Source: an uncultured archaeon (GTDB lineage: Archaea > Aenigmatarchaeota > Aenigmatarchaeia > CG10238-14 > SCSR01). From it: a DNA stretch of 58,729 bases. Shown here in pieces: positions 9,370-39,149 of this stretch (positions within the stretch are counted from its first letter, which is position 1; each line of letters opens with the position of its first letter). The stretch covers positions 1 through 58,729 of the forward strand of contig CAYJVM010000003.1 of assembly GCA_964373665.1 (NCBI GenBank), read 5' to 3'. Made by a program: the position numbers and the translations under genes. The notes under the pieces were generated by a model, which saw nothing but the letters and a program-made list of their open reading frames with translations, was not told where the DNA came from and searched no databases.

Positions 9370-12300
9370 ATGGAGTCCGACATTAACCAAAGAGTTGTTC
9401 TTTCTGGGGAGCAAAAAGGGCTGAAGATACCTCGGATGTTCACGAAGGATGGTGAGGACGCATATCAAGCTGTAGAGTGGGAAAAGAGAACGTCGTTAAT
9501 CAAAAATCCTGACGGCACTATAGTTTTTAAGATGGACAATGTTGAAATCCCGAAATTCTGGTCGCAGACGGCCGCGGACATTCTCGCTCAAAAATACCTG
9601 AGAAAAAGAGGCGTGCCTCAAGTTGATGCGAGTGGCAATCCGATTTTAGATGCTCATGGAAGGCAACTTACTGGAAGCGAAACTTCATTAAAGCAGGTTG
9701 TTCACAGACTTGCAGGTTGTTGGACTTGGTGGGGAAACAAGTTCAATTATTTTGCGACGCAGGAAGACGCGAAAGCTTTCTACGATGAGATTGCATTTAT
9801 GCTCTTGCGGCAGTTTTGTGCTCCAAATTCTCCACAATGGTTCAACACAGGATTGCATTGGGCATATGGGATTACAGGACCTGCGCAAGGGCATTGGTAT
9901 GTCGATCCTGATACAAAACAGTTAGTGCAGTCACAAGACGCATATTCACATTCACAATGCCACGCGTGCTTTATTCAACCGGTAAGAGACGAGTTAGTTA
10001 ATGAAGGTGGTATTTTAGATCTTGCAGTTAGAGAAGCAAGAATTTTTAAATATGGAAGTGGCTGTACTTCAGGCGAATCCTATATTTACACAGACAAATT
10101 CGGCCTAATGAAAATAAACGAACTATTTGAAAAGTTCAAACATATAGGAATCAAAGATTTTGACAGGAAAGGTAAGTTTGTTAATGTGTCCAAATTAGGA
10201 ATTCATACCATTTCTATGACGAATGATGGTATTTTCGAAAAGGATCTAATAGAAAAGGTGTGGCAATATGATGTTTCAAAAGAGGATAAACTAAAAGTCT
10301 CTTTATCTAACGGTACTAGAGTCGTTGTTTCGGCATGGCATCCGTTTCTTGTTTGGAACGGAAGAAAAATCGAAGAAAGAAGAGCAGATCAATTAAATAG
10401 AGGTGACGCAGTTTTATCTAGCAATTCCACCATTAAGAGGATCTTACCTGAAGAGAATGTATCAATCGAATGGACTTCCAAATATTTCAAAGAAGAAGAA
10501 AAAAACACCGTCAAGGTCGACAAAGACTTATCATGGTTAATTGGATATTTCATAGGAGACGGTTCATTAGGAAAAAGAAAACAAAAGGTAAAAGGAAAAC
10601 TCTATGAAGGATTAAGATTACGATTTTTCGACGAAACTTTATTAAGTTTAGAAAAAGCCAAGGTAATAATAAAAGAGAAATTCGGAGATTACAGCAAAAT
10701 ATCATACGATAAAAGAAGCAAATGTCTTGTTCTCTACTGCTTAGGAAGGAGAACTACAAGTTTTTTCTCAAATATAACGAAACCAAATAAAACATATTCG
10801 ATCGAATTCCCGGAATTCATCTTAAAATCACAACTAACTAATATTTACTCTTTCTTAGCAGGCTTGATAGACTCCGATGGTCATGTTACAGCAGAAGGTA
10901 AGACCGCGTATTCAACTGCTTCCAGATTATTAGCAGAAAAGCTCTCAGTTTTAAGTTCTCTATTGGGATTCGGCGGAGGAATGGTCAAAGATGATAAAAC
11001 CTACATAGTGACTCTAATAGCAAAATCGACCAACTCATCGAAGTTAATGAAAGTTTTAGAAAATATGAGTAATCCAGGAAGAAAGGAAAGACTATCCGAG
11101 TCTTTACTAAGAGAAAACCATCGAAAGCGTTTTACTATACCATTATCAGAAGAAATATTTGGCCAGGCATTTGATATTCCATCTAAAACATCTAACTGGT
11201 TATCTTATTCGGTAGGGACATCTACTTTTCATTTAGGTAGATTAAAATATGAAGGTGTTATAAACCCTGTAAAGTTGAAGAGGCTGTTATTTGAAGTCGA
11301 TACTACAGATGCAACAGAATTTTTAAAAAGAATTAGCGAATCTGCAACTTTTGTTGAATCCATCGAAACAACAGACGAAAATCCAGAGTTTTTCGATCTA
11401 ACTGTCAATAAAAATAATAATTATCTTGCAGGACAGCATGGGTTAGTTGTAATTCACAATACAGGAACTAACTTTTCGAATCTAAGGGCGAAAGGCGAAC
11501 CGTTATCTGGTGGTGGAACGTCTTCTGGGGTTATGTCATTTTTGAAAATCAATGATGTTGTTGCAGGATCTATAAAATGTGTGCACGAAGATACAGAGCT
11601 TGTTACAAAAAACGGTATTAAAAAGATTAAAAATGTTAAAAAGGGGGAGTATGTCTTAACAAAGAATGGATTTAAAAAAGTGTCGAATGTTTTTGACAAT
11701 GGCGTTAAAAATCTAGTAAAGATTAGGACGTCATTAGGATTCGAAGTTCTATGTACGCCTGAACATAGATTTTTAGTTAGAACATCTGATGGCGAAGAAG
11801 TTTGGAAGGAGGTAAAAGATATTACTCAGGATGATTTCATAAACATTGATTTTTCCGGTTATGAATACAACGACTTCAAAAAATTGAAGCCTGTCGGTTT
11901 AAATCATCACAATGAAAGGAAAATAAAATTACCTGAAATTTTAGATGAGAAATTTGCCGAATGGCTAGGATTGATATATGGTGACGGAAGTGTAACAGAA
12001 ACACGACATGCTTCTTATGTTGGTATACAAATTGGCTTGGACGACAAAGATATGAGCGAGAAATATAAAAAACTTTCAAAGGAACTTTTTGGTATACATG
12101 TTTATGAAAATAAAAGAAAAGACAAGCACGATAATTCGATAAGCTTGAGGATTGCATCAAAACCTTTAATAAGATTTCTTAGAGAAAACGATTGTTTAAA
12201 GACGTCTTCTACCAAATTATCCATACCGTTATTGATAAAAGAATCGCCTAGTTCGGTTCGAGCGGCCTTCTTGCGTGGACTCTTCGAGTCTGACGGCACA

Positions 12301-15267
12301 ATTGAGAGGCGGATGTACCCTTCGTGCTCATCTGTGAGCGAAAGGATGGTTAAAGACATTCAATCACTTCTTCAAAGTATAGGCATTCTTTCCAAATCAT
12401 CCCATTCTGATAATAGATCCGGTGCATACGGGATCTTACCTATTCATAGAGTGCTAGTTACATCGTTTTTTGGCATAAAAGAATTTGCCGCAAAAGTATC
12501 ATTCCTTTCTGATAGAAAAAGACAAACAATGCTGGAAGGGCTAAAATGCTTAGAGAATAGGGATTTTGAACAGCAGTGGATCTTACCTTATTTTGAAAAT
12601 GATTTCGAAGAAATGTATGCAGGGTTACCTGGTGGAAAATATGACGTTCGAAGAGCTGCCAGCCAGCATTTCCGAGAAAGTACAGGCAAAACCAACTTTA
12701 ACAGATTCAGAGCCAACAAACTTCTAAATAAGTTTGTACAGCTGAAAGGAAGTTTTATAGAACCATTATCGAGATCCAATGTTTATTATGATAAAATCAC
12801 AGTTGAGCCGTTCGGAGACGGACACGTTTTCGATCTAGAAATACCTGACGGAAATCAATATCTTATCACTGGAATAGTCTCTCATAATTCTGGCGGCACT
12901 ACACGTCGTGCAGCTAAGATGGTGCTTTTGAATATCGACCATCCGGAGATTGAAGCATTCATAAAATGGAAGGCGAATGAAGAGAAAAAGTTTGCAGCGC
13001 TGGTTGGCGCCGGATTGGTAAAGGCTGATAGCATCGAATCGGCGGGCGAGCATGTATTTGGCCAGAATTCAAACAACTCTGTTCGTGTGACAGACGATTT
13101 CATGAAGGCTGTTATTGAGGACAAAGATTGGAACCTGACATGGAGAACCGACGGGGGAATCGCAAAGACAGTAAAGGCCAAGTATTTATGGGATGCAATC
13201 GCGCAGTCTGCGTGGGAGTGTGCAGATCCAGGGCTACAGTTCGATACGACTTATAATGATTGGCACACATGCCCAGCATCTGGAAGAATAAATGCAACTA
13301 ATCCATGTAGTGAGTACGCTTTCCTTGACAATACAGCATGCAATCTTGCATCGCTGAATTTGGGAAAATTCATGGAAAACGGCACATTCGATGTAGAAGG
13401 GTTCAAGCATGCTGCAAGATTATGGACGATAGTTCTCGAAATCTCAGTTTTAATGGCGCAATATCCATCTAAAGAAATTGCACAATTGAGCTATGAGTAC
13501 AGAACGTTGGGGTTAGGCTACACGAACCTAGGATCAATCCTCATGAAATTGGGAATTCCTTATGATTCTGAGAAAGCAAGAGCTATCGCTGCGGCACTGA
13601 CGGCGATAATGACAGGCGAAAGTTATGCTGCTTCGGCAGAGATGGCCAGTGTGCTCGAACCGTTCCCAGGATTTGAAAAAAATAAAGAGCACATGTTGCG
13701 CGTCGTCAGAAATCACAGGAGAGCCGCATACAATGCGCCAAAGGAAGAATATGAGGGATTGCATGTTATTCCACCTGGAATTGATCACACTGAATGTCCT
13801 GACTATATGCTCAAGGCAGCAATTGCATCTTGGGACAAGGCTTTGATGCTTGGTGAAAGGTATGGATACAGGAATGCGCAAGCGACTTTGATTGCACCTA
13901 CAGGAACAATAAGCTTTGTGATGGATGCTGATACAACAGGAATAGAGCCGGACTTTGCTTTGGTCAAGTTCAAGAAACTTGTCGGCGGTGGATACTTTAA
14001 GATAGTGAACCAGACAGTGGAACCGGCGTTGAAGAATCTCGGTTATACTAAAGAGGAGATCAGAGAGATTTTGAGGTACATGGTTGGCAGCAACACTTTC
14101 GAAGGGTCACCTTACATCAATGCCTTTACGCTGAAAAGGAAAGGGTTCTCTGATGCCGACCTTGAAAAGACGGAAAAATTATTGCACGGCGTTTTGGACT
14201 TGTCATTTGTTTTCAACATAAGCACTCTTGGGAAAGAGTGCATTGAAAGATTAGGGTTCAAGCAAGCCCAGTATAATGAGCCTGATTTTGATTTGTTAAG
14301 GGCCTTGGGATTCAGGGATGATGAGATTGAAGCGGCTAATGAATTCATCTGCGGGACGCAGACTATAGAAGGCGCTCCGCACTTGAAGGCAGAACATTAT
14401 CCGATTTTCGACTGTGCGAACAAATGCGGAAAGAAAGGAGAACGATATATTAATTACATGGCGCATGTTTACATGATGGCGGCAACGCAGCCTTTCTTGT
14501 CTGGAAGCATAAGCAAGACTATCAACATGCCCAATCATGCGACTGTTGAGGAGATAGAGAAGGTTTATTTTGAATCGTGGAAACTTGGATTAAAGTCTCT
14601 GGCGCTTTACCGCGACGGAAGCAAGATGCTGCAACCTTTGTCGGTTTTCAAGCAGCAGAAGCAGGAGACGGCAGCGCCTGTTAGGAAGAAATTGCAGCAG
14701 GAGAGAAAGGCGCTGGCTCACAAGTTCAGGATAGGAAATCAGGAAGGGTACATACATGTTGGATTGTTCGAGGACGGACATCCTGGTGAGCTGTTTGTGA
14801 CAATGGCCAAGCAAGGAAGCACGTTGTCAGGACTGATGGATGCTTTTGCGCTGACTGTTTCCATCGGGTTGCAGTATGGAGTTCCGCTGAAAGTTCTAGT
14901 GAGCAAGTTCATCAACAGCAGGTTCGAGCCGATGGGCTGGACTGATAATGAAGAGATACCTGTGGCCAAGTCGATTATGGACTATATCTTCAGATGGATG
15001 GCTTTCAAGTTTTTGGCTAGAGACGATTTGAAGGAATTGGGATTATTGAACGGCGAGAAGATTATTGTTTCCGGCGAGGAGGTTGAGGGTGTGGAGAGCC
15101 AGAACCAGAATGTTGCAAGACTGACGCAGTTTGTGCATGAAAGGGAAGAGCACAAATATGACATGTCTGGAGATGCGTCGACTTGCTCAGAGTGCGGATC
15201 TCTGATGGTTAGGAGCGGTTCTTGCTATGTCTGCACCAGTTGCGGGAGCACGAGCGGCTGTTCTTAA
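9370..15267 (+). CDS. nrdJ: Class II (adenosylcobalamin-dependent) ribonucleotide reductase with two inteins
   Basis: PNSPQWFNTG, HACFI, NPCSE, CNLASLNL, APTGTIS, ISKTINMP, C-terminal CxxC Zn ribbon; 1062 aa after removing inteins. Confidence 0.95.
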   Translation: MESDINQRVVLSGEQKGLKIPRMFTKDGEDAYQAVEWEKRTSLIKNPDGTIVFKMDNVEIPKFWSQTAADILAQKYLRKRGVPQVDASGNPILDAHGRQLTGSETSLKQVVHRLAGCWTWWGNKFNYFATQEDAKAFYDEIAFMLLRQFCAPNSPQWFNTGLHWAYGITGPAQGHWYVDPDTKQLVQSQDAYSHSQCHACFIQPVRDELVNEGGILDLAVREARIFKYGSGCTSGESYIYTDKFGLMKINELFEKFKHIGIKDFDRKGKFVNVSKLGIHTISMTNDGIFEKDLIEKVWQYDVSKEDKLKVSLSNGTRVVVSAWHPFLVWNGRKIEERRADQLNRGDAVLSSNSTIKRILPEENVSIEWTSKYFKEEEKNTVKVDKDLSWLIGYFIGDGSLGKRKQKVKGKLYEGLRLRFFDETLLSLEKAKVIIKEKFGDYSKISYDKRSKCLVLYCLGRRTTSFFSNITKPNKTYSIEFPEFILKSQLTNIYSFLAGLIDSDGHVTAEGKTAYSTASRLLAEKLSVLSSLLGFGGGMVKDDKTYIVTLIAKSTNSSKLMKVLENMSNPGRKERLSESLLRENHRKRFTIPLSEEIFGQAFDIPSKTSNWLSYSVGTSTFHLGRLKYEGVINPVKLKRLLFEVDTTDATEFLKRISESATFVESIETTDENPEFFDLTVNKNNNYLAGQHGLVVIHNTGTNFSNLRAKGEPLSGGGTSSGVMSFLKINDVVAGSIKCVHEDTELVTKNGIKKIKNVKKGEYVLTKNGFKKVSNVFDNGVKNLVKIRTSLGFEVLCTPEHRFLVRTSDGEEVWKEVKDITQDDFINIDFSGYEYNDFKKLKPVGLNHHNERKIKLPEILDEKFAEWLGLIYGDGSVTETRHASYVGIQIGLDDKDMSEKYKKLSKELFGIHVYENKRKDKHDNSISLRIASKPLIRFLRENDCLKTSSTKLSIPLLIKESPSSVRAAFLRGLFESDGTIERRMYPSCSSVSERMVKDIQSLLQSIGILSKSSHSDNRSGAYGILPIHRVLVTSFFGIKEFAAKVSFLSDRKRQTMLEGLKCLENRDFEQQWILPYFENDFEEMYAGLPGGKYDVRRAASQHFRESTGKTNFNRFRANKLLNKFVQLKGSFIEPLSRSNVYYDKITVEPFGDGHVFDLEIPDGNQYLITGIVSHNSGGTTRRAAKMVLLNIDHPEIEAFIKWKANEEKKFAALVGAGLVKADSIESAGEHVFGQNSNNSVRVTDDFMKAVIEDKDWNLTWRTDGGIAKTVKAKYLWDAIAQSAWECADPGLQFDTTYNDWHTCPASGRINATNPCSEYAFLDNTACNLASLNLGKFMENGTFDVEGFKHAARLWTIVLEISVLMAQYPSKEIAQLSYEYRTLGLGYTNLGSILMKLGIPYDSEKARAIAAALTAIMTGESYAASAEMASVLEPFPGFEKNKEHMLRVVRNHRRAAYNAPKEEYEGLHVIPPGIDHTECPDYMLKAAIASWDKALMLGERYGYRNAQATLIAPTGTISFVMDADTTGIEPDFALVKFKKLVGGGYFKIVNQTVEPALKNLGYTKEEIREILRYMVGSNTFEGSPYINAFTLKRKGFSDADLEKTEKLLHGVLDLSFVFNISTLGKECIERLGFKQAQYNEPDFDLLRALGFRDDEIEAANEFICGTQTIEGAPHLKAEHYPIFDCANKCGKKGERYINYMAHVYMMAATQPFLSGSISKTINMPNHATVEEIEKVYFESWKLGLKSLALYRDGSKMLQPLSVFKQQKQETAAPVRKKLQQERKALAHKFRIGNQEGYIHVGLFEDGHPGELFVTMAKQGSTLSGLMDAFALTVSIGLQYGVPLKVLVSKFINSRFEPMGWTDNEEIPVAKSIMDYIFRWMAFKFLARDDLKELGLLNGEKIIVSGEEVEGVESQNQNVARLTQFVHEREEHKYDMSGDASTCSECGSLMVRSGSCYVCTSCGSTSGCS
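10063..11460 (+). mobile_element. Intein 1 of NrdJ (466 aa) with LAGLIDADG endonuclease
   Basis: YGSG|CTSGE...VIHN|TG; motifs IGYFIGDG and LAGLIDSDG. Confidence 0.93.
11578..12888 (+). mobile_element. Intein 2 of NrdJ (437 aa) with LAGLIDADG endonuclease
   Basis: GSIK|CVHED...VSHN|SGG; motifs LGLIYGDG and LRGLFESDG. Confidence 0.93.
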
Positions 15268-36702: not shown

Positions 36703-36963
36703 TTAGGAGCACACAGTCGCATTTCCTCTTATGTCAAAACATTGGCAACTATGCGGAATGCCGGCACAATAGTATGCTGTTCCGCAGTCGAAACAGCCTT
36801 CCGGATAGTAGCTGAACTTGATTCCCACACATCCGCATTCTTTATTTTTTGGGAGGCCTGCGAGCCCGCCACTAGATGCATACTCTTTCGGAAACAGAAT
36901 GACTATTAAAGCTAGTGCGGCAAAACCGATTAACAAAAGGTTCTTGTCTTCCAATTTCATCAC
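36703..36963 (-). CDS. Membrane-anchored Cys-rich small protein
   Basis: N-terminal TM helix, then 8 Cys. Confidence 0.7.
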   Translation of the reverse strand: MMKLEDKNLLLIGFAALALIVILFPKEYASSGGLAGLPKNKECGCVGIKFSYYPEGCFDCGTAYYCAGIPHSCQCFDIRGNATVCS

Positions 36964-39149
36964 TTCTTTTTCTTTGCCACCCAGTCAGCGACAAATGTCG
37001 GATGTTGGCCGACGAGATAGTTGTATGCCTGTAGTGCAGCCTTGCATCCTTCACCTGCAGAAACCACTATTTGCTTGAAGGGCGTCTGTGTCAAATCACC
37101 CGCGGCAAATACGCCGGGTCTTATGTCTTCGGTATCCGGATAAAAAGTCTCTCCGTTGTTGCTGACAATAACCTGTCCCAGCTGGTCCAGCTTCACCAAG
37201 TGCTTGATGAACTCAGTCTTGGTCACTGAGCCTATTTCAACGAAAACTCCCGATATAGTGAGTTCCTTTTCCACTTTTGTGGAAACGTTCTGTACGATAA
37301 TTGAATGTACTGTATTCTTTCCTTTGATCTCCTTCACGACTGAATTGTAAAGTATCTCAATATTCTTCCTCTTCTTCACTTCTTCAATCAGATACTCGAA
37401 GCCACGGAACTGGTCGCGACGGTGAATCAGATAAACTTTAGGGCAGATTTTGCTCAGATATTCAGCACCTTCCAAAGCAGAATTACCACCCCCAACCACA
37501 GCCACACTCTTACCTTTGAATAGAGGTCCGTCACAATTGTGGACTATGGAATTAGTAGTTACATAAGTATTGTTTTCGGCTACAACCAAGTTATAAACTT
37601 CACCATTGTATCTTTCCTTTTTTATTTGGCGTATTGGAAGATATACATAACCACCCCTTATCCAAGCATGATGAGCCATTCTTTTCCTAGATTCTATCTT
37701 CCTGTGCTTTACTCCGAGTATTTTAGACATGCTTTCTAAGAATGGTCCACCTACTAAGAGTTGATATTTGTCATGTTTGAATTCTATCCTCCTTCCGTTT
37801 ATGTAGGTGGGCTTTAACTTTTCTAGCGGTATTTTTTCAACCGAAGGTATTATGTCTAGCCTTAGAAACAGTGATTTAATTTGTGCGCATAGTTTTTTAG
37901 AGTTTGTCGTTATTGAAAAATGTTTCTCGGCATTATAGCCGTCGCCTCTCCATATACCTTTAATCAATTCCTTTTGTTTTGCATTAGGTAAGAAAATCAT
38001 CCAATGTGGAATGCTCTTATTATAAGAGTATTTCCCAAACAACTTTCCGAACAACTTACCGACAAGTACAGAATAAACGCCTATTCTCAAGACGTTTTCA
38101 GCTACTTTCACCGAAGCTTTGATGCCGAATAAATTCTCAACGATTTTTACAATATCGTCTGCGTAATTTTCCTGCCCTTTTTGCAAGTATATGTTAATTC
38201 CTCTAGATGTTGTGCAACCGTCTGAGAGAAAATACCCAGCAAGCCTCATGAATTCTCTGTTTACGGGTATTTTGGAAGGGATGCTGTGGGAAGCATAAGT
38301 CGGTTTTTTATACGATACAACTTCGGTTCCAATCGGGAACCCCAGTCTTGTTATATTCAGAAATCTTTTGTCAATTATGTCAGTAATTATAGGATACAAT
38401 AGTATGTGTTTTTCAGTCAAGTTCCCAGCAGAAACCCATTCCGGTTGCTCCCATATAAAATTCCAATAGTTATTAGACGGGCCTTTATGTAGTTTTGTTG
38501 CAAGCACAGGATGATTCGGAGTTAGCTTCACATCACTTTCTCTAAAGAACCGTGTCTTAATTCTCACCAAGTCTCCGGCATATCTTCTTTTGACCGTCTT
38601 TATTACAGGTTTGAATGAACCATCGTGTGTTAGGATCAAATCAGATTGCTTTATTTCTGATATGGGTCTCAAAGAATTGTTAACAATTACGTCTGAATCG
38701 GATGGTAAACAAGTGACGCAATAAGAAACGCCTTTGGCGCCGAATTCCCCTTCTCCGGACACGTCCAAAGTCCTCGGCGTCTTGCCGTAGGATAGTATGA
38801 CACTCTTTGTCTTGTATGTGTTGGGCGCTGTTGTCTTCACTGAAAACATAGGCTTGCCGTCATTCGCATTCGGTGCCTCTTCCACGGCATTAACCTCTTC
38901 ATAAATAACCTCCGCTCCAGCCTTGATAGCCTGCTTCAACATCTTGTTCATCAGGGGAACTCCTCCTACACTGAGGAAGCCAGGATAGTTCTCGATCACA
39001 TCGGTCATCACAGCCTGCCCCCCGATGCTCTTGGCAATGATTAATGTCTTCATCGCCCTTCGTGCTGCGTAAATGCCGGCCGTCAAAGATGCGGCGGCGC
39101 CCCCGATGACGACTGTATCGTAGACGGTCTCGCCAGAAATTTTACCCAC
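36960..39149 (-). CDS. trxB: Thioredoxin reductase with intein in the CxxC
   Basis: VIGGAAA, GVSYCVT|..|CDG, VVGGGNSA, HRRDQFR, GVFAAGD; 337 aa after removing the intein. Confidence 0.94.
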   Translation of the reverse strand: MGKISGETVYDTVVIGGAAASLTAGIYAARRAMKTLIIAKSIGGQAVMTDVIENYPGFLSVGGVPLMNKMLKQAIKAGAEVIYEEVNAVEEAPNANDGKPMFSVKTTAPNTYKTKSVILSYGKTPRTLDVSGEGEFGAKGVSYCVTCLPSDSDVIVNNSLRPISEIKQSDLILTHDGSFKPVIKTVKRRYAGDLVRIKTRFFRESDVKLTPNHPVLATKLHKGPSNNYWNFIWEQPEWVSAGNLTEKHILLYPIITDIIDKRFLNITRLGFPIGTEVVSYKKPTYASHSIPSKIPVNREFMRLAGYFLSDGCTTSRGINIYLQKGQENYADDIVKIVENLFGIKASVKVAENVLRIGVYSVLVGKLFGKLFGKYSYNKSIPHWMIFLPNAKQKELIKGIWRGDGYNAEKHFSITTNSKKLCAQIKSLFLRLDIIPSVEKIPLEKLKPTYINGRRIEFKHDKYQLLVGGPFLESMSKILGVKHRKIESRKRMAHHAWIRGGYVYLPIRQIKKERYNGEVYNLVVAENNTYVTTNSIVHNCDGPLFKGKSVAVVGGGNSALEGAEYLSKICPKVYLIHRRDQFRGFEYLIEEVKKRKNIEILYNSVVKEIKGKNTVHSIIVQNVSTKVEKELTISGVFVEIGSVTKTEFIKHLVKLDQLGQVIVSNNGETFYPDTEDIRPGVFAAGDLTQTPFKQIVVSAGEGCKAALQAYNYLVGQHPTFVADWVAKKKK
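37536..38711 (-). mobile_element. Intein of TrxB (392 aa) with LAGLIDADG endonuclease
   Basis: C1 (CLPSD), LTPNHP, AGYFLSDG, IKGIWRGDG, VHN|C. Confidence 0.93.

What the first reader, a model, noticed from the sequence alone, without database searches (positions are those of the whole stretch)
37536..38711. Intein inserted inside the redox-active CxxC of thioredoxin reductase
Seen: YCVT|intein|CDG, so the second catalytic Cys is the +1 splicing nucleophile and the intein C1 lies three residues from the first catalytic Cys. Established: inteins mostly occupy replication and recombination proteins, and C1 disulfide traps can make splicing redox-dependent. Inference: a rare host with possible redox-gated splicing.
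Basis: partly seen in the sequence, partly recalled or inferred. Interest (0 to 1): 0.78.

Follow-up and report, generated by a model that had tools for sequence, protein, structure and literature searches.

The report
Mobile intein splitting thioredoxin reductase's CxxC
A self-splicing, mobile protein insert (an intein with a homing endonuclease) sits exactly between the two catalytic cysteines of a DPANN archaeon's thioredoxin reductase; I found no paper on this insertion site, it recurs in many uncultured microbes, and it has the cysteine layout known to make splicing redox-dependent, though that is untested.

Summary
Window 37536..38711 (- strand) encodes a 392-aa intein inside a 729-aa trxB ORF (36960..39149). 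The junctions are GVSYCVT|CLPSD... and ...IVHN|CDGPLF. Removing it restores a 337-aa low-Mr thioredoxin reductase with a contiguous CVTC motif, colinear with nine intein-free Aenigmatarchaeota orthologs (78-87% identity).

The insert is a standard class-1 intein. Cys1, block-B TxxH, terminal HN and Cys+1 are invariant in 39/39 relatives. It carries a two-motif LAGLIDADG endonuclease. The AF2 model (pLDDT 92.7) matches TliVMA, PI-SceI and PI-PkoII.

The allele is not unique. It occurs in 43 metagenomic protein clusters and at least 26 GTDB species, across DPANN archaea, Thermoplasmata, Patescibacteria and Pyrinomonadaceae. The intein tree disagrees with host taxonomy, presence is sporadic, and endonuclease motifs are mostly intact. 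This is the pattern of a selfish homing element.

No paper I could search names a TrxR intein.

The Cys-3/Cys1/Cys+1 triad matches known redox traps (Pab MoaA, engineered Ssp DnaE, Pab PolII). Reduction-dependent splicing is therefore plausible, but it is an automatic result of the insertion site and is untested. Verdict: a real new member of a known kind and a good candidate for conditional-splicing experiments. Interest is moderate.

The parts
36960..39149 (-). trxB precursor ORF, 729 aa, GTG start: N-extein + intein + C-extein
38712..39149 (-). N-extein (aa 1-146): first FAD-binding segment and start of the NADPH domain, ending ...GVSYC144-V-T146
38718..38720 (-). Cys144 = first catalytic Cys of the TrxR CxxC = position -3 relative to the intein
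   Evidence: aligned to the CxxC of solved TrxR 3f8p
37536..38711 (-). Intein, 392 aa (precursor aa 147-538), class 1, with a nested LAGLIDADG homing endonuclease. GC 0.37 / GC3 0.36 versus extein 0.485 / 0.547.
38709..38711 (-). Cys1 (C147), N-terminal splicing nucleophile; invariant 39/39
38505..38525 (-). Block B LTPNHPV. Thr (B:7, intein T64) and His (B:10, intein H67) are invariant 39/39.
37677..38294 (-). Approximate homing-endonuclease domain (intein aa ~140-345), alpha/beta LAGLIDADG fold
   Evidence: Secondary structure of the AF2 model; Foldseek hits to I-DmoI and the endonuclease parts of PI-SceI and TliVMA
38217..38246 (-). LAGLIDADG motif 1, RLAGYFLSDG (acidic residue D164; D or E in 36/39 relatives)
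37938..37970 (-). LAGLIDADG motif 2, ELIKGIWRGDG (D257; D in 36/39 relatives)
37536..37610 (-). Blocks F and G, YNGEVYNLVVAENNTYVTTNSIVHN. F:4 is Asn, which is atypical and clade-wide. Penultimate His and terminal Asn are invariant.
37533..37535 (-). Cys+1 (C539) = second catalytic Cys of TrxR and nucleophile for transesterification
36960..37535 (-). C-extein (aa 539-729 plus stop): CDGPLF..., GGGNSALEGAE and HRRDQFRG NADPH-type motifs, FAAGD
39287..39535 (-). 82-aa thioredoxin-like protein (CVYC) about 140 nt upstream on the same strand: the likely substrate. This trx-trxB pairing is conserved in all 10 related loci.

Best explanation
This is a functional class-1 intein with an embedded LAGLIDADG homing endonuclease. 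It is a selfish mobile element that has homed into the most conserved stretch of trxB, immediately before the second Cys of the redox-active CxxC. The precursor cannot act as a TrxR because 392 residues separate the two catalytic cysteines.

Inferred from established intein chemistry, maturation runs as follows:
1. An N-S acyl shift occurs at Cys1 (C147), assisted by block-B Thr and His.
2. Cys+1 (C539) attacks to form the branched intermediate.
3. Asn538 cyclises, assisted by His537, and releases the intein.
4. An S-N shift creates the T146-C peptide bond and the mature C-V-T-C active site.

The free intein's endonuclease would cut intein-less trxB alleles at the CxxC-coding site and spread the element. 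This explains its patchy, cross-lineage distribution.

The precursor carries Cys-3, Cys1 and Cys+1 together, and Cys-3-x-x-Cys1 recreates a pseudo-CxxC. Oxidising conditions should therefore reversibly lock the nucleophiles in a disulfide and make splicing reduction-dependent. I regard this as a likely chemical by-product of the insertion site, not a demonstrated or selected regulatory function.
For: Shown here:
- Exact in-frame boundaries, and restoration of a full-length TrxR on excision.
- C1, T(B:7), H(B:10), H(G:6), N(G:7) and C+1 are invariant in 39/39 full-length relatives. LAGLIDADG acidic residues are intact in 36/39 at each motif.
- The AF2 model has pLDDT 92.7 and pTM 0.91. Its best structural matches are endonuclease-bearing inteins: TliVMA 7qsu at E=3e-21, then PI-SceI, PI-PkoII and PI-PfuI. 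I-DmoI matches the nuclease domain.
- Purifying selection acts on the intein, including its endonuclease. Against L090, pN is 0.18-0.27 while pS is 0.73-0.82.
- Distribution is sporadic. Nine close Aenigmatarchaeota orthologs lack the intein; the window and P0002 carry it.
- Intein and extein identities are discordant, for example P0004 at 60% intein / 42% extein and P0024 at 50% / 33%.
- In the NJ tree, host taxonomy is scrambled. Pyrinomonadaceae nest inside a Thermoplasmata group, Patescibacteria group with archaea, and two Aenigmatarchaeota lineages fall apart.
- Composition breaks at the boundaries: GC3 0.36 in the intein versus 0.55 in the extein.
- The same window holds three more inteins in two other genes, so this genome is intein-rich.

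From the literature: Cys-3/Cys1 and Cys1/Cys+1 disulfides block splicing until reduced (PMC3922620; PMC10663303).
Against: There is no experimental evidence of splicing, of endonuclease activity, or of any disulfide. Block-F position 4 is Asn rather than the usual Asp, so catalysis may differ in detail. However, Asn is shared by the whole clade, including its RadA and SufB alleles. Monophyly of all TrxR-site inteins has only 58% NJ bootstrap support. Contig-level read data showed no intein-less allele in the same samples, so ongoing homing is not documented. Only 58 kb of the genome is visible, so I cannot tell whether a second, intein-free trxB exists.
Confidence: 0.8

Rival explanations
1. 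Domesticated redox or NADPH switch. On this reading the intein is retained by selection because the Cys144-Cys147 (or Cys147-Cys539) disulfide holds TrxR as an inactive precursor under oxidising conditions. Maturation is then triggered by reduction. The reductant could be the existing Trx/TrxR pool, giving autocatalytic feed-forward, or the precursor's own FAD/NADPH acting on the pseudo-CxxC.
For: The Cys-3-x-x-Cys1 spacing is identical to the engineered and native redox traps. All three cysteines are invariant across the family. The host enzyme and the adjacent thioredoxin gene are themselves the disulfide-reducing system. Sister inteins sit at other redox or Fe-S cysteines, including inside the CPGC of 2-oxoacid:ferredoxin oxidoreductase beta. 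The intein is under purifying selection.
Against: Conservation of Cys-3 and Cys+1 is forced by TrxR catalysis, so it says nothing about selection for a trap. Nine of eleven close relatives do without the intein. Endonuclease motifs are intact in about 92% of members and no mini-intein derivative was seen, which is the signature of an active homing cycle rather than domestication. Other alleles of the same clade (IscU, RadA, SufB) have no Cys at -3. Blocking maturation of the main disulfide reductase during oxidative stress looks maladaptive.
Confidence: 0.12
2. Dead insertion. On this reading the intein no longer splices, trxB is effectively inactivated, and function is supplied by a paralog elsewhere in the genome.
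For: Asn occupies block-F position 4, where Asp is most common. Pfam Intein_splicing scores just below its gathering threshold. Only 58 kb of the genome is visible, so a paralog cannot be excluded.
Against: The ORF is uninterrupted. All essential splicing residues are invariant in 39/39 relatives. Both exteins and intein show strong purifying selection. The same F:4 Asn is found throughout a large clade that includes RadA and SufB alleles. The trx-trxB operon context is preserved.
Confidence: 0.04
3. Assembly or annotation artefact: a chimeric contig joining a TrxR gene and an unrelated homing-endonuclease gene.
For: None beyond the compositional step at the boundaries.
Against: The sequence is identical in contigs from four independent runs at 30-85x depth. 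The same architecture at the same codon occurs in 43 independent protein clusters and at least 26 genomes. The junction is in frame with canonical intein termini.
Confidence: 0.01

Closest known systems
Pyrococcus abyssi MoaA intein and the engineered Ssp DnaE 'redox trap' (Callahan et al. 2011, as summarised in PMC3922620 and PMC10663303)
   Same: A Cys at extein position -3 and the catalytic Cys1 form a CxxC-spaced pair. Their disulfide blocks the first splicing step until reduction. The host (MoaA) is also a redox-sensitive enzyme.
   Different: Here the -3 Cys is itself a catalytic residue of the host's redox-active disulfide. The +1 nucleophile is the other catalytic Cys, so three reactive thiols converge. 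No disulfide or redox dependence has been measured. I could not read the primary paper, only the reviews.
Pab PolII intein (Cys1-Cys+1 disulfide) and Mma PolII intein (internal disulfide switch)
   Same: Cys1 and Cys+1 are both present, so a nucleophile-nucleophile disulfide is possible. [quoted passage not shown]
   Different: The host protein and the intein lineage are different. The window's intein has no conserved internal Cys pair: C166 and C275 are not conserved.
Mycobacterium tuberculosis SufB intein (reported oxidative/nitrosative stress sensor; Topilina 2015, cited in PMC4760082)
   Same: It is an intein in a non-replicative, Cys-dependent redox/Fe-S protein. SufB-site inteins (EG|C...HN|CTAP) are sisters of the TrxR intein in my search.
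   Different: The insertion context is different and SufB has no CxxC at the junction. Whether the archaeal SufB alleles found here are orthologous to the Mtu intein was not tested.
Endonuclease-bearing archaeal and yeast inteins with solved structures: TliVMA (7qsu/7qss), PI-SceI (1vde), PI-PkoII (2cw7), PI-PfuI (1dq3)
   Same: They share the overall HINT splicing domain with an inserted two-motif LAGLIDADG nuclease (Foldseek E=3e-21 to 8e-13, TM up to 0.74).
   Different: Sequence identity is only 12-16%. By sequence alone only PI-PkoII is detectable, at E=9e-5. Block F:4 is Asn here but Asp in PI-PkoII (alignment).
Sister alleles of the same intein clade: IscU (GNPV|C..HN|CGD), 2-oxoacid:ferredoxin oxidoreductase beta (WCPG|C..HN|CGDFG), a PAH|C..|CWTPWF protein, RadA
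   Same: 28-36% identity, the same block signature (CLPP/CV.P, LTPxHPV, VYNL, HN|C), and all use Cys1 and Cys+1.
   Different: The host genes differ and each host forms its own clade in the NJ tree. Only the TrxR and oxidoreductase-beta alleles lie inside a CxxC.

Membership tests
Class 1 intein | N-terminal nucleophile (Cys or Ser at position 1) | tested here: met
   Cys1 = C147; Cys in 39/39 family members
Class 1 intein | Block B TxxH (Thr B:7, His B:10) | tested here: met
   LTPNHPV; T64 and H67 invariant 39/39
Class 1 intein | C-terminal His-Asn (G:6, G:7) followed by a Cys/Ser/Thr +1 extein residue | tested here: met
   ...SIVHN|C; H391, N392 and C+1 invariant
Class 1 intein | HINT fold of the splicing domain | tested here: met
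   AF2 pLDDT 92.7; Foldseek top hits are inteins, E down to 3e-21
Class 1 intein | In-frame insertion whose removal restores a contiguous conserved host protein | tested here: met
   Nine intein-free orthologs colinear across the junction; TIGR01292 matched 1-300/300; 3f8p alignment
Class 1 intein | Demonstrated protein splicing (precursor converted to ligated exteins plus free intein) | not testable with these tools
   Needs expression and SDS-PAGE/MS
LAGLIDADG homing endonuclease (two-motif, intein-nested) | Two LAGLIDADG motifs, each ending in a catalytic acidic residue | tested here: met
   RLAGYFLSD164G and KGIWRGD257G; Pfam LAGLIDADG_3 at 1e-11 with two stretches
LAGLIDADG homing endonuclease (two-motif, intein-nested) | alpha-beta-beta-alpha-beta-beta-alpha pseudo-dimeric fold | tested here: met
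   Foldseek matches to I-DmoI (E~2e-6, TMt ~0.7) and the nuclease domains of PI-SceI and TliVMA
LAGLIDADG homing endonuclease (two-motif, intein-nested) | Site-specific cleavage of the intein-less allele | not testable with these tools
   Needs an in vitro cleavage assay on the empty site (sequence)
Low-Mr thioredoxin-disulfide reductase (TIGR01292) | Redox-active CxxC in the NADPH domain | tested here: met
   Present only after conceptual splicing: SYCVTCDG, aligned to the SYCSVCDA of 3f8p
Low-Mr thioredoxin-disulfide reductase (TIGR01292) | Score above the curated equivalog cut-off | tested here: inconclusive
   327.7 bits versus a cut-off of 343.45, with full-length match 1-300/300. AhpF models score much lower relative to their cut-offs.
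Low-Mr thioredoxin-disulfide reductase (TIGR01292) | Partner thioredoxin | tested here: met
   An 82-aa Thioredoxin_3 / MJ0307-like CxxC protein lies directly upstream, and the pairing is conserved in 10/10 related loci
Redox-trap inteins (Cys-3/Cys1 type) | Cys at extein position -3, giving Cys-x-x-Cys1 | tested here: met
   C144-V-T-C147; C-x-x|C in every N-junction seen
Redox-trap inteins (Cys-3/Cys1 type) | A Cys-3/Cys1 disulfide forms in the precursor | not testable with these tools
   Needs differential-alkylation MS or a crystal structure.
Redox-trap inteins (Cys-3/Cys1 type) | Splicing or N-cleavage blocked when oxidised and released by reductant | not testable with these tools
   Needs a splicing assay with and without DTT/TCEP/oxidant, and the C144S control

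The most novel reading that the evidence does not exclude
The TrxR precursor is a self-resetting redox or NADPH sensor. Its exteins fold and bind FAD around the intein. The pseudo-active-site disulfide Cys144-Cys147 is reduced by the precursor's own flavin, or by already-mature Trx/TrxR, which frees Cys1. Maturation of the cell's disulfide reductase would then be autocatalytically coupled to NADPH and thiol status. That would be a native, physiologically meaningful case of conditional protein splicing, in an enzyme that sets the very signal it senses.
Probability: 0.08. Interest if true: 0.85.

Novelty: new member of a known kind. Interest (0 to 1): 0.55.

Why it matters
Whether any native intein regulates its host, rather than merely parasitising it, is a standing question in the field. 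The reviews I read say physiological relevance remains to be shown (PMC4031507, PMC3922620).

This allele places the three reactive thiols of a proven trap geometry (Cys-3, Cys1, Cys+1) inside the enzyme that controls cytoplasmic thiol redox. Its thioredoxin partner is encoded next door. That gives a clean, cheap experimental system: one precursor, one C144S control, and a built-in physiological reductant.

It also extends the host range of inteins into core redox metabolism. It shows a whole clade that targets catalytic cysteines in TrxR, IscU, SufB and 2-oxoacid:ferredoxin oxidoreductase. It documents apparent archaea-to-bacteria spread of a single intein allele.

For genome annotation, it explains 700-aa 'FAD-dependent oxidoreductases' in DPANN, CPR and Acidobacteriota MAGs.

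Tried and rejected
- **Literature.** Four searches for a TrxR or TrxB intein found nothing relevant. The main text of Novikova 2016 does not mention thioredoxin, and its supplements are not held. The primary redox-trap paper (PMC3087850) is not held, so that precedent rests on two reviews.
- **Intein-less allele in the same samples.** Logan contigs from four runs show only the intein-bearing form and no skipping joint. Contigs cannot exclude rare variants.
- **Viral vector.** In IMG/VR the best relatives are 31% identical or less and sit in other genes. None is a TrxR allele.
- **dN/dS versus the closest intein-bearing relative.** Synonymous sites are saturated (pS 0.73-0.83), so only the qualitative result pN << pS is usable.
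- **Cys-Cys distances in the precursor.** The structure tool returns no coordinates, so I did not spend a job folding the whole precursor.
- **Promoter/terminator scan.** It uses bacterial sigma-70 consensus and found no more than chance; it is not relevant to an archaeon.
- **Opposite-strand ORFs inside the intein.** These are 64-66 aa with no support, so I rejected them as features.
- **Second trxB or second copy of this intein in the window.** None was found.
- **First bootstrap script.** It timed out and was redone with a faster script.
Full report
**1. The observation**

The region lies in one uninterrupted ORF on the minus strand, 36960..39149, 729 aa, GTG start. It begins CLPSDSD and ends SIVHN. 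It is preceded by ...GAKGVSYCVT and followed by CDGPLFKGKS.

Pfam sees a pyridine-nucleotide disulfide oxidoreductase (Pyr_redox_2, 1e-31) split by a LAGLIDADG_3 domain (1e-11). An intein splicing domain scores 3e-8, just under Pfam's own threshold.

The coordinates and junctions are therefore right. The only slip is numbering. The first catalytic Cys is residue 144, not 143. Cys1 is 147 and Cys+1 is 539.

**2. A precise insertion into a real TrxR**

Conceptual excision gives a 337-aa protein:
- It matches the thioredoxin-disulfide reductase equivalog TIGR01292 over its full length (1-300/300). The score is 327.7 bits, slightly below the 343.45 cut-off.
- It aligns end to end with solved low-Mr TrxRs. 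The best is Sulfolobus TrxB-3 (3f8p, E=2e-63), and E. coli TrxR is also matched. The CxxC motifs align.

Nine Aenigmatarchaeota MAGs in GTDB carry orthologs that are 78-87% identical. None has the insert, and all read SYC(VT/TV/AT)CD(G/A/M)PLF without a gap at the junction. This places the window in a DPANN (Aenigmatarchaeota) genome and defines the empty site.

An 82-aa thioredoxin-like protein (CVYC; Thioredoxin_3, MJ0307-like) lies about 140 nt upstream on the same strand. That pairing is conserved in all ten related loci.

The sequence is identical in contigs from four independent metagenome runs at about 30-85x depth. It is not a chimera.

**3. Anatomy of the insert**

I aligned 39 full-length relatives.
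- *Splicing residues.* Cys1, block-B Thr and His (LTPNHPV), the penultimate His, the terminal Asn and the +1 Cys are invariant.
- *Endonuclease motifs.* The two LAGLIDADG motifs (RLAGYFLSDG, KGIWRGDG) keep their acidic residues in 36/39 members each.
- *Block F.* Position 4 is Asn in 38/39. A review lists Asp, then Cys, then Trp as the usual residues there (PMC4031507). Asn is nevertheless shared by the whole wider clade, including RadA and SufB alleles. I read it as a clade trait, not as decay.

An AlphaFold2 model built on 22 family members is confident (pLDDT 92.7, pTM 0.91). Its best PDB matches are endonuclease-bearing inteins: TliVMA (E=3e-21, TM 0.69/0.74), PI-SceI, PI-PkoII and PI-PfuI. 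I-DmoI matches the nuclease domain. By sequence alone only PI-PkoII is detectable (E=9e-5), so this is a divergent lineage.

Against the closest intein-bearing relative (P0002, locus L090), synonymous sites are saturated (pS 0.73-0.83). Non-synonymous differences are few: 0.11-0.12 in the exteins, 0.215 in the intein and 0.175 in the endonuclease. The whole insert is under purifying selection.

Its composition differs sharply from its host gene: GC3 0.36 versus 0.55. The same is true in L090.

**4. Distribution**

The word-indexed protein search returned 43 clusters (38-73% identical overall). Wherever a junction is present, they carry the intein at the same codon: C-x-x|C[L/M]P...HN|CD. Some are already auto-labelled by JGI as 'thioredoxin reductase/intein/homing endonuclease'. 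NCBI labels others 'FAD-dependent oxidoreductase [Pyrinomonadaceae]'.

A profile search of 1.84 billion 50%-identity representatives found 20,274 relatives of the intein. About 16 of the top clusters are TrxR-site alleles. Four of these carry a more divergent intein (CVTPET...ACVHN) at the same site.

In GTDB species representatives at least 26 genomes carry it. They span:
- Woese-, Pace-, Nano-, Micr- and Aenigmat-archaeota;
- Methanomassiliicoccales and other Thermoplasmata;
- a Patescibacteria genome;
- several Pyrinomonadaceae (Acidobacteriota).

Intein and extein similarities are discordant. P0004 is 60% identical in the intein but 42% in the extein. P0024 is 50% versus 33%.

In an NJ tree the bacterial inteins nest among archaeal ones. 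A second Aenigmatarchaeota allele (L028) groups with Woesearchaeota rather than with the window.

All TrxR-site inteins form one clade in 58% of NJ bootstraps. A single founding invasion is plausible but not secure.

No viral contig carries the allele.

Sporadic presence, discordant trees, intact nucleases and a compositional step are together the classic picture of a homing element that moves horizontally.

**5. Why this site**

Relatives at 28-36% identity occupy other catalytic-cysteine motifs:
- IscU (GNPV|C...HN|CGD);
- the beta subunit of 2-oxoacid:ferredoxin oxidoreductase (WCPG|C...HN|CGDFG), confirmed as TPP_enzyme_C + PFO_beta_C after excision;
- SufB;
- RadA;
- a PAH|C...|CWTPWF protein.

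All use Cys1 and Cys+1. The lineage therefore targets codons just upstream of an invariant Cys in highly conserved motifs. Such sites give it a stable DNA target and a guaranteed +1 nucleophile.

A Cys1 intein inserted before the second Cys of a CxxC automatically regenerates a CxxC (Cys-3-x-x-Cys1) in the precursor. Its conservation cannot be taken as evidence of selection for a trap. Alleles of the same clade in IscU, RadA and SufB have no Cys at -3.

**6. Mechanism**

What follows from established intein chemistry (PMC4031507, PMC10663303):
1. An N-S acyl shift occurs at C147.
2. C539 attacks to give the branched intermediate.
3. Asn538 cyclises and releases the intein.
4. An S-N shift gives mature C144-V-T-C-D-G.

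The precursor cannot be an active TrxR, because the dithiol pair is separated by the insert.

What is inferred: oxidation can lock C147 with C144, as in the engineered Ssp DnaE trap and the native Pab MoaA intein. It could also lock C147 with C539, as in Pab PolII. Either would make splicing reduction-dependent (reviews).

I rate in vitro redox sensitivity as about even odds or better. I rate an evolved regulatory role as unlikely (about 0.1). Close relatives thrive without the intein, the nuclease is maintained, no mini-intein derivatives were seen, and stalling the main disulfide reductase under oxidative stress seems counter-productive.

The most interesting reading still open is that mature Trx/TrxR, or the precursor's own flavin, reduces the pseudo-CxxC. 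That would make maturation autocatalytic and NADPH-coupled.

**7. Comparison with what is known, and novelty**

It works like, and passes every sequence and structure test for, a class-1 LAGLIDADG-bearing intein. It has the defining sequence feature of a Cys-3/Cys1 redox-trap intein, but the defining behaviour is untested.

I found no publication describing an intein in thioredoxin reductase. The searchable library omits most subscription journals and InBase. The sequences themselves are public, and a few carry automatic labels.

I therefore class it as a new member of a known kind: an undescribed intein allele with a known mechanism. Its value is as a natural test case for conditional protein splicing.

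**8. Limits**

- There are no experimental data.
- Only 58 kb of the genome is visible.
- Phylogenies are distance-based.
- The read evidence is contig-level.
- The primary redox-trap paper could not be read.

Noticed in passing
window 40908..43340 (-); intein about 41295..42416: A class-III aminotransferase (Aminotran_3, 2e-109), 810 aa, carries its own 374-aa intein (Intein_splicing 1e-13, LAGLIDADG_2 7e-27). It is inserted at ...EGSHA|CFHRR...TALVSN|STFGGN, inside the conserved STFGGN motif, with Ser rather than His as the penultimate residue. This is another unusual metabolic host, only about 1.7 kb from trxB.
   Followed up: partly
window 9370..15267 (+); inteins about 10063..11460 and 11578..12888: A 1965-aa class II (B12) ribonucleotide reductase has two LAGLIDADG inteins (KYGSG|CTSGE...VVIHN|TGTNF and GSIK|CVHED...IVSHN|SGGTTRR). 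With trxB and the aminotransferase, that makes four inteins in three genes within 58 kb.
   Followed up: partly
L069 2444..4504 (Ca. Nitrosotenuis chungbukensis MY2 chromosome); also L054, L058, L062, L067, L075, L079-L081, L085, L086, L088, and L041, L057, L059, L070: A sister intein (about 30% identical) sits inside the CPGC motif of the 2-oxoacid:ferredoxin oxidoreductase beta subunit (WCPG|C...HN|CGDFG). This is widespread in ammonia-oxidising Nitrososphaeria, including a cultured strain. It gives the same Cys-3-x-x-Cys1 geometry, literally C-P-G-C, in an experimentally accessible organism.
   Followed up: partly
L035, L037, L043, L046-L048, L050, L055, L056, L060, L063-L065, L071, L072, L077; P0046, P0128, P0137: Related inteins interrupt IscU/NifU-type Fe-S scaffold proteins at the conserved cluster-ligand Cys (GNPV|C...HN|CGD). 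They occur in many DPANN archaea, Bathyarchaeia, Thermoplasmatota, WOR-1 and Planctomycetia.
   Followed up: no
P0079, P0080, P0083, P0084: Four TrxR clusters carry a clearly more divergent intein (CVTPET.../...ACVHN; 33-39% identical to the window's) at the same CxxC codon. This is either an old split within the allele or a second invasion of the site. NJ support for one clade is only 58%.
   Followed up: partly
window 36703..36963 (-): An 86-aa ORF overlaps the trxB stop codon by 4 nt. It encodes an N-terminal hydrophobic segment followed by a 10-Cys region. It has no Pfam hit and no counterpart in the ten related loci. It may be a spurious ORF or a lineage-specific small Cys-rich protein.
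   Followed up: partly
window 37536..38711 versus the flanks; L090 intein: The intein is markedly more AT-rich than its host gene in both intein-bearing Aenigmatarchaeota loci (GC 0.37 vs 0.485 in the window; 0.346 vs 0.42 in L090). This is consistent with acquisition from an AT-richer donor, or with a persistent compositional bias of the element.
   Followed up: partly
window 37536..37610 (block F); tree alignment of 68 inteins: Block-F position 4 is Asn (VYNL) across this whole intein clade (TrxR, IscU, oxidoreductase-beta, RadA and SufB alleles) instead of the usual Asp. The mechanistic consequence is unknown.
   Followed up: partly
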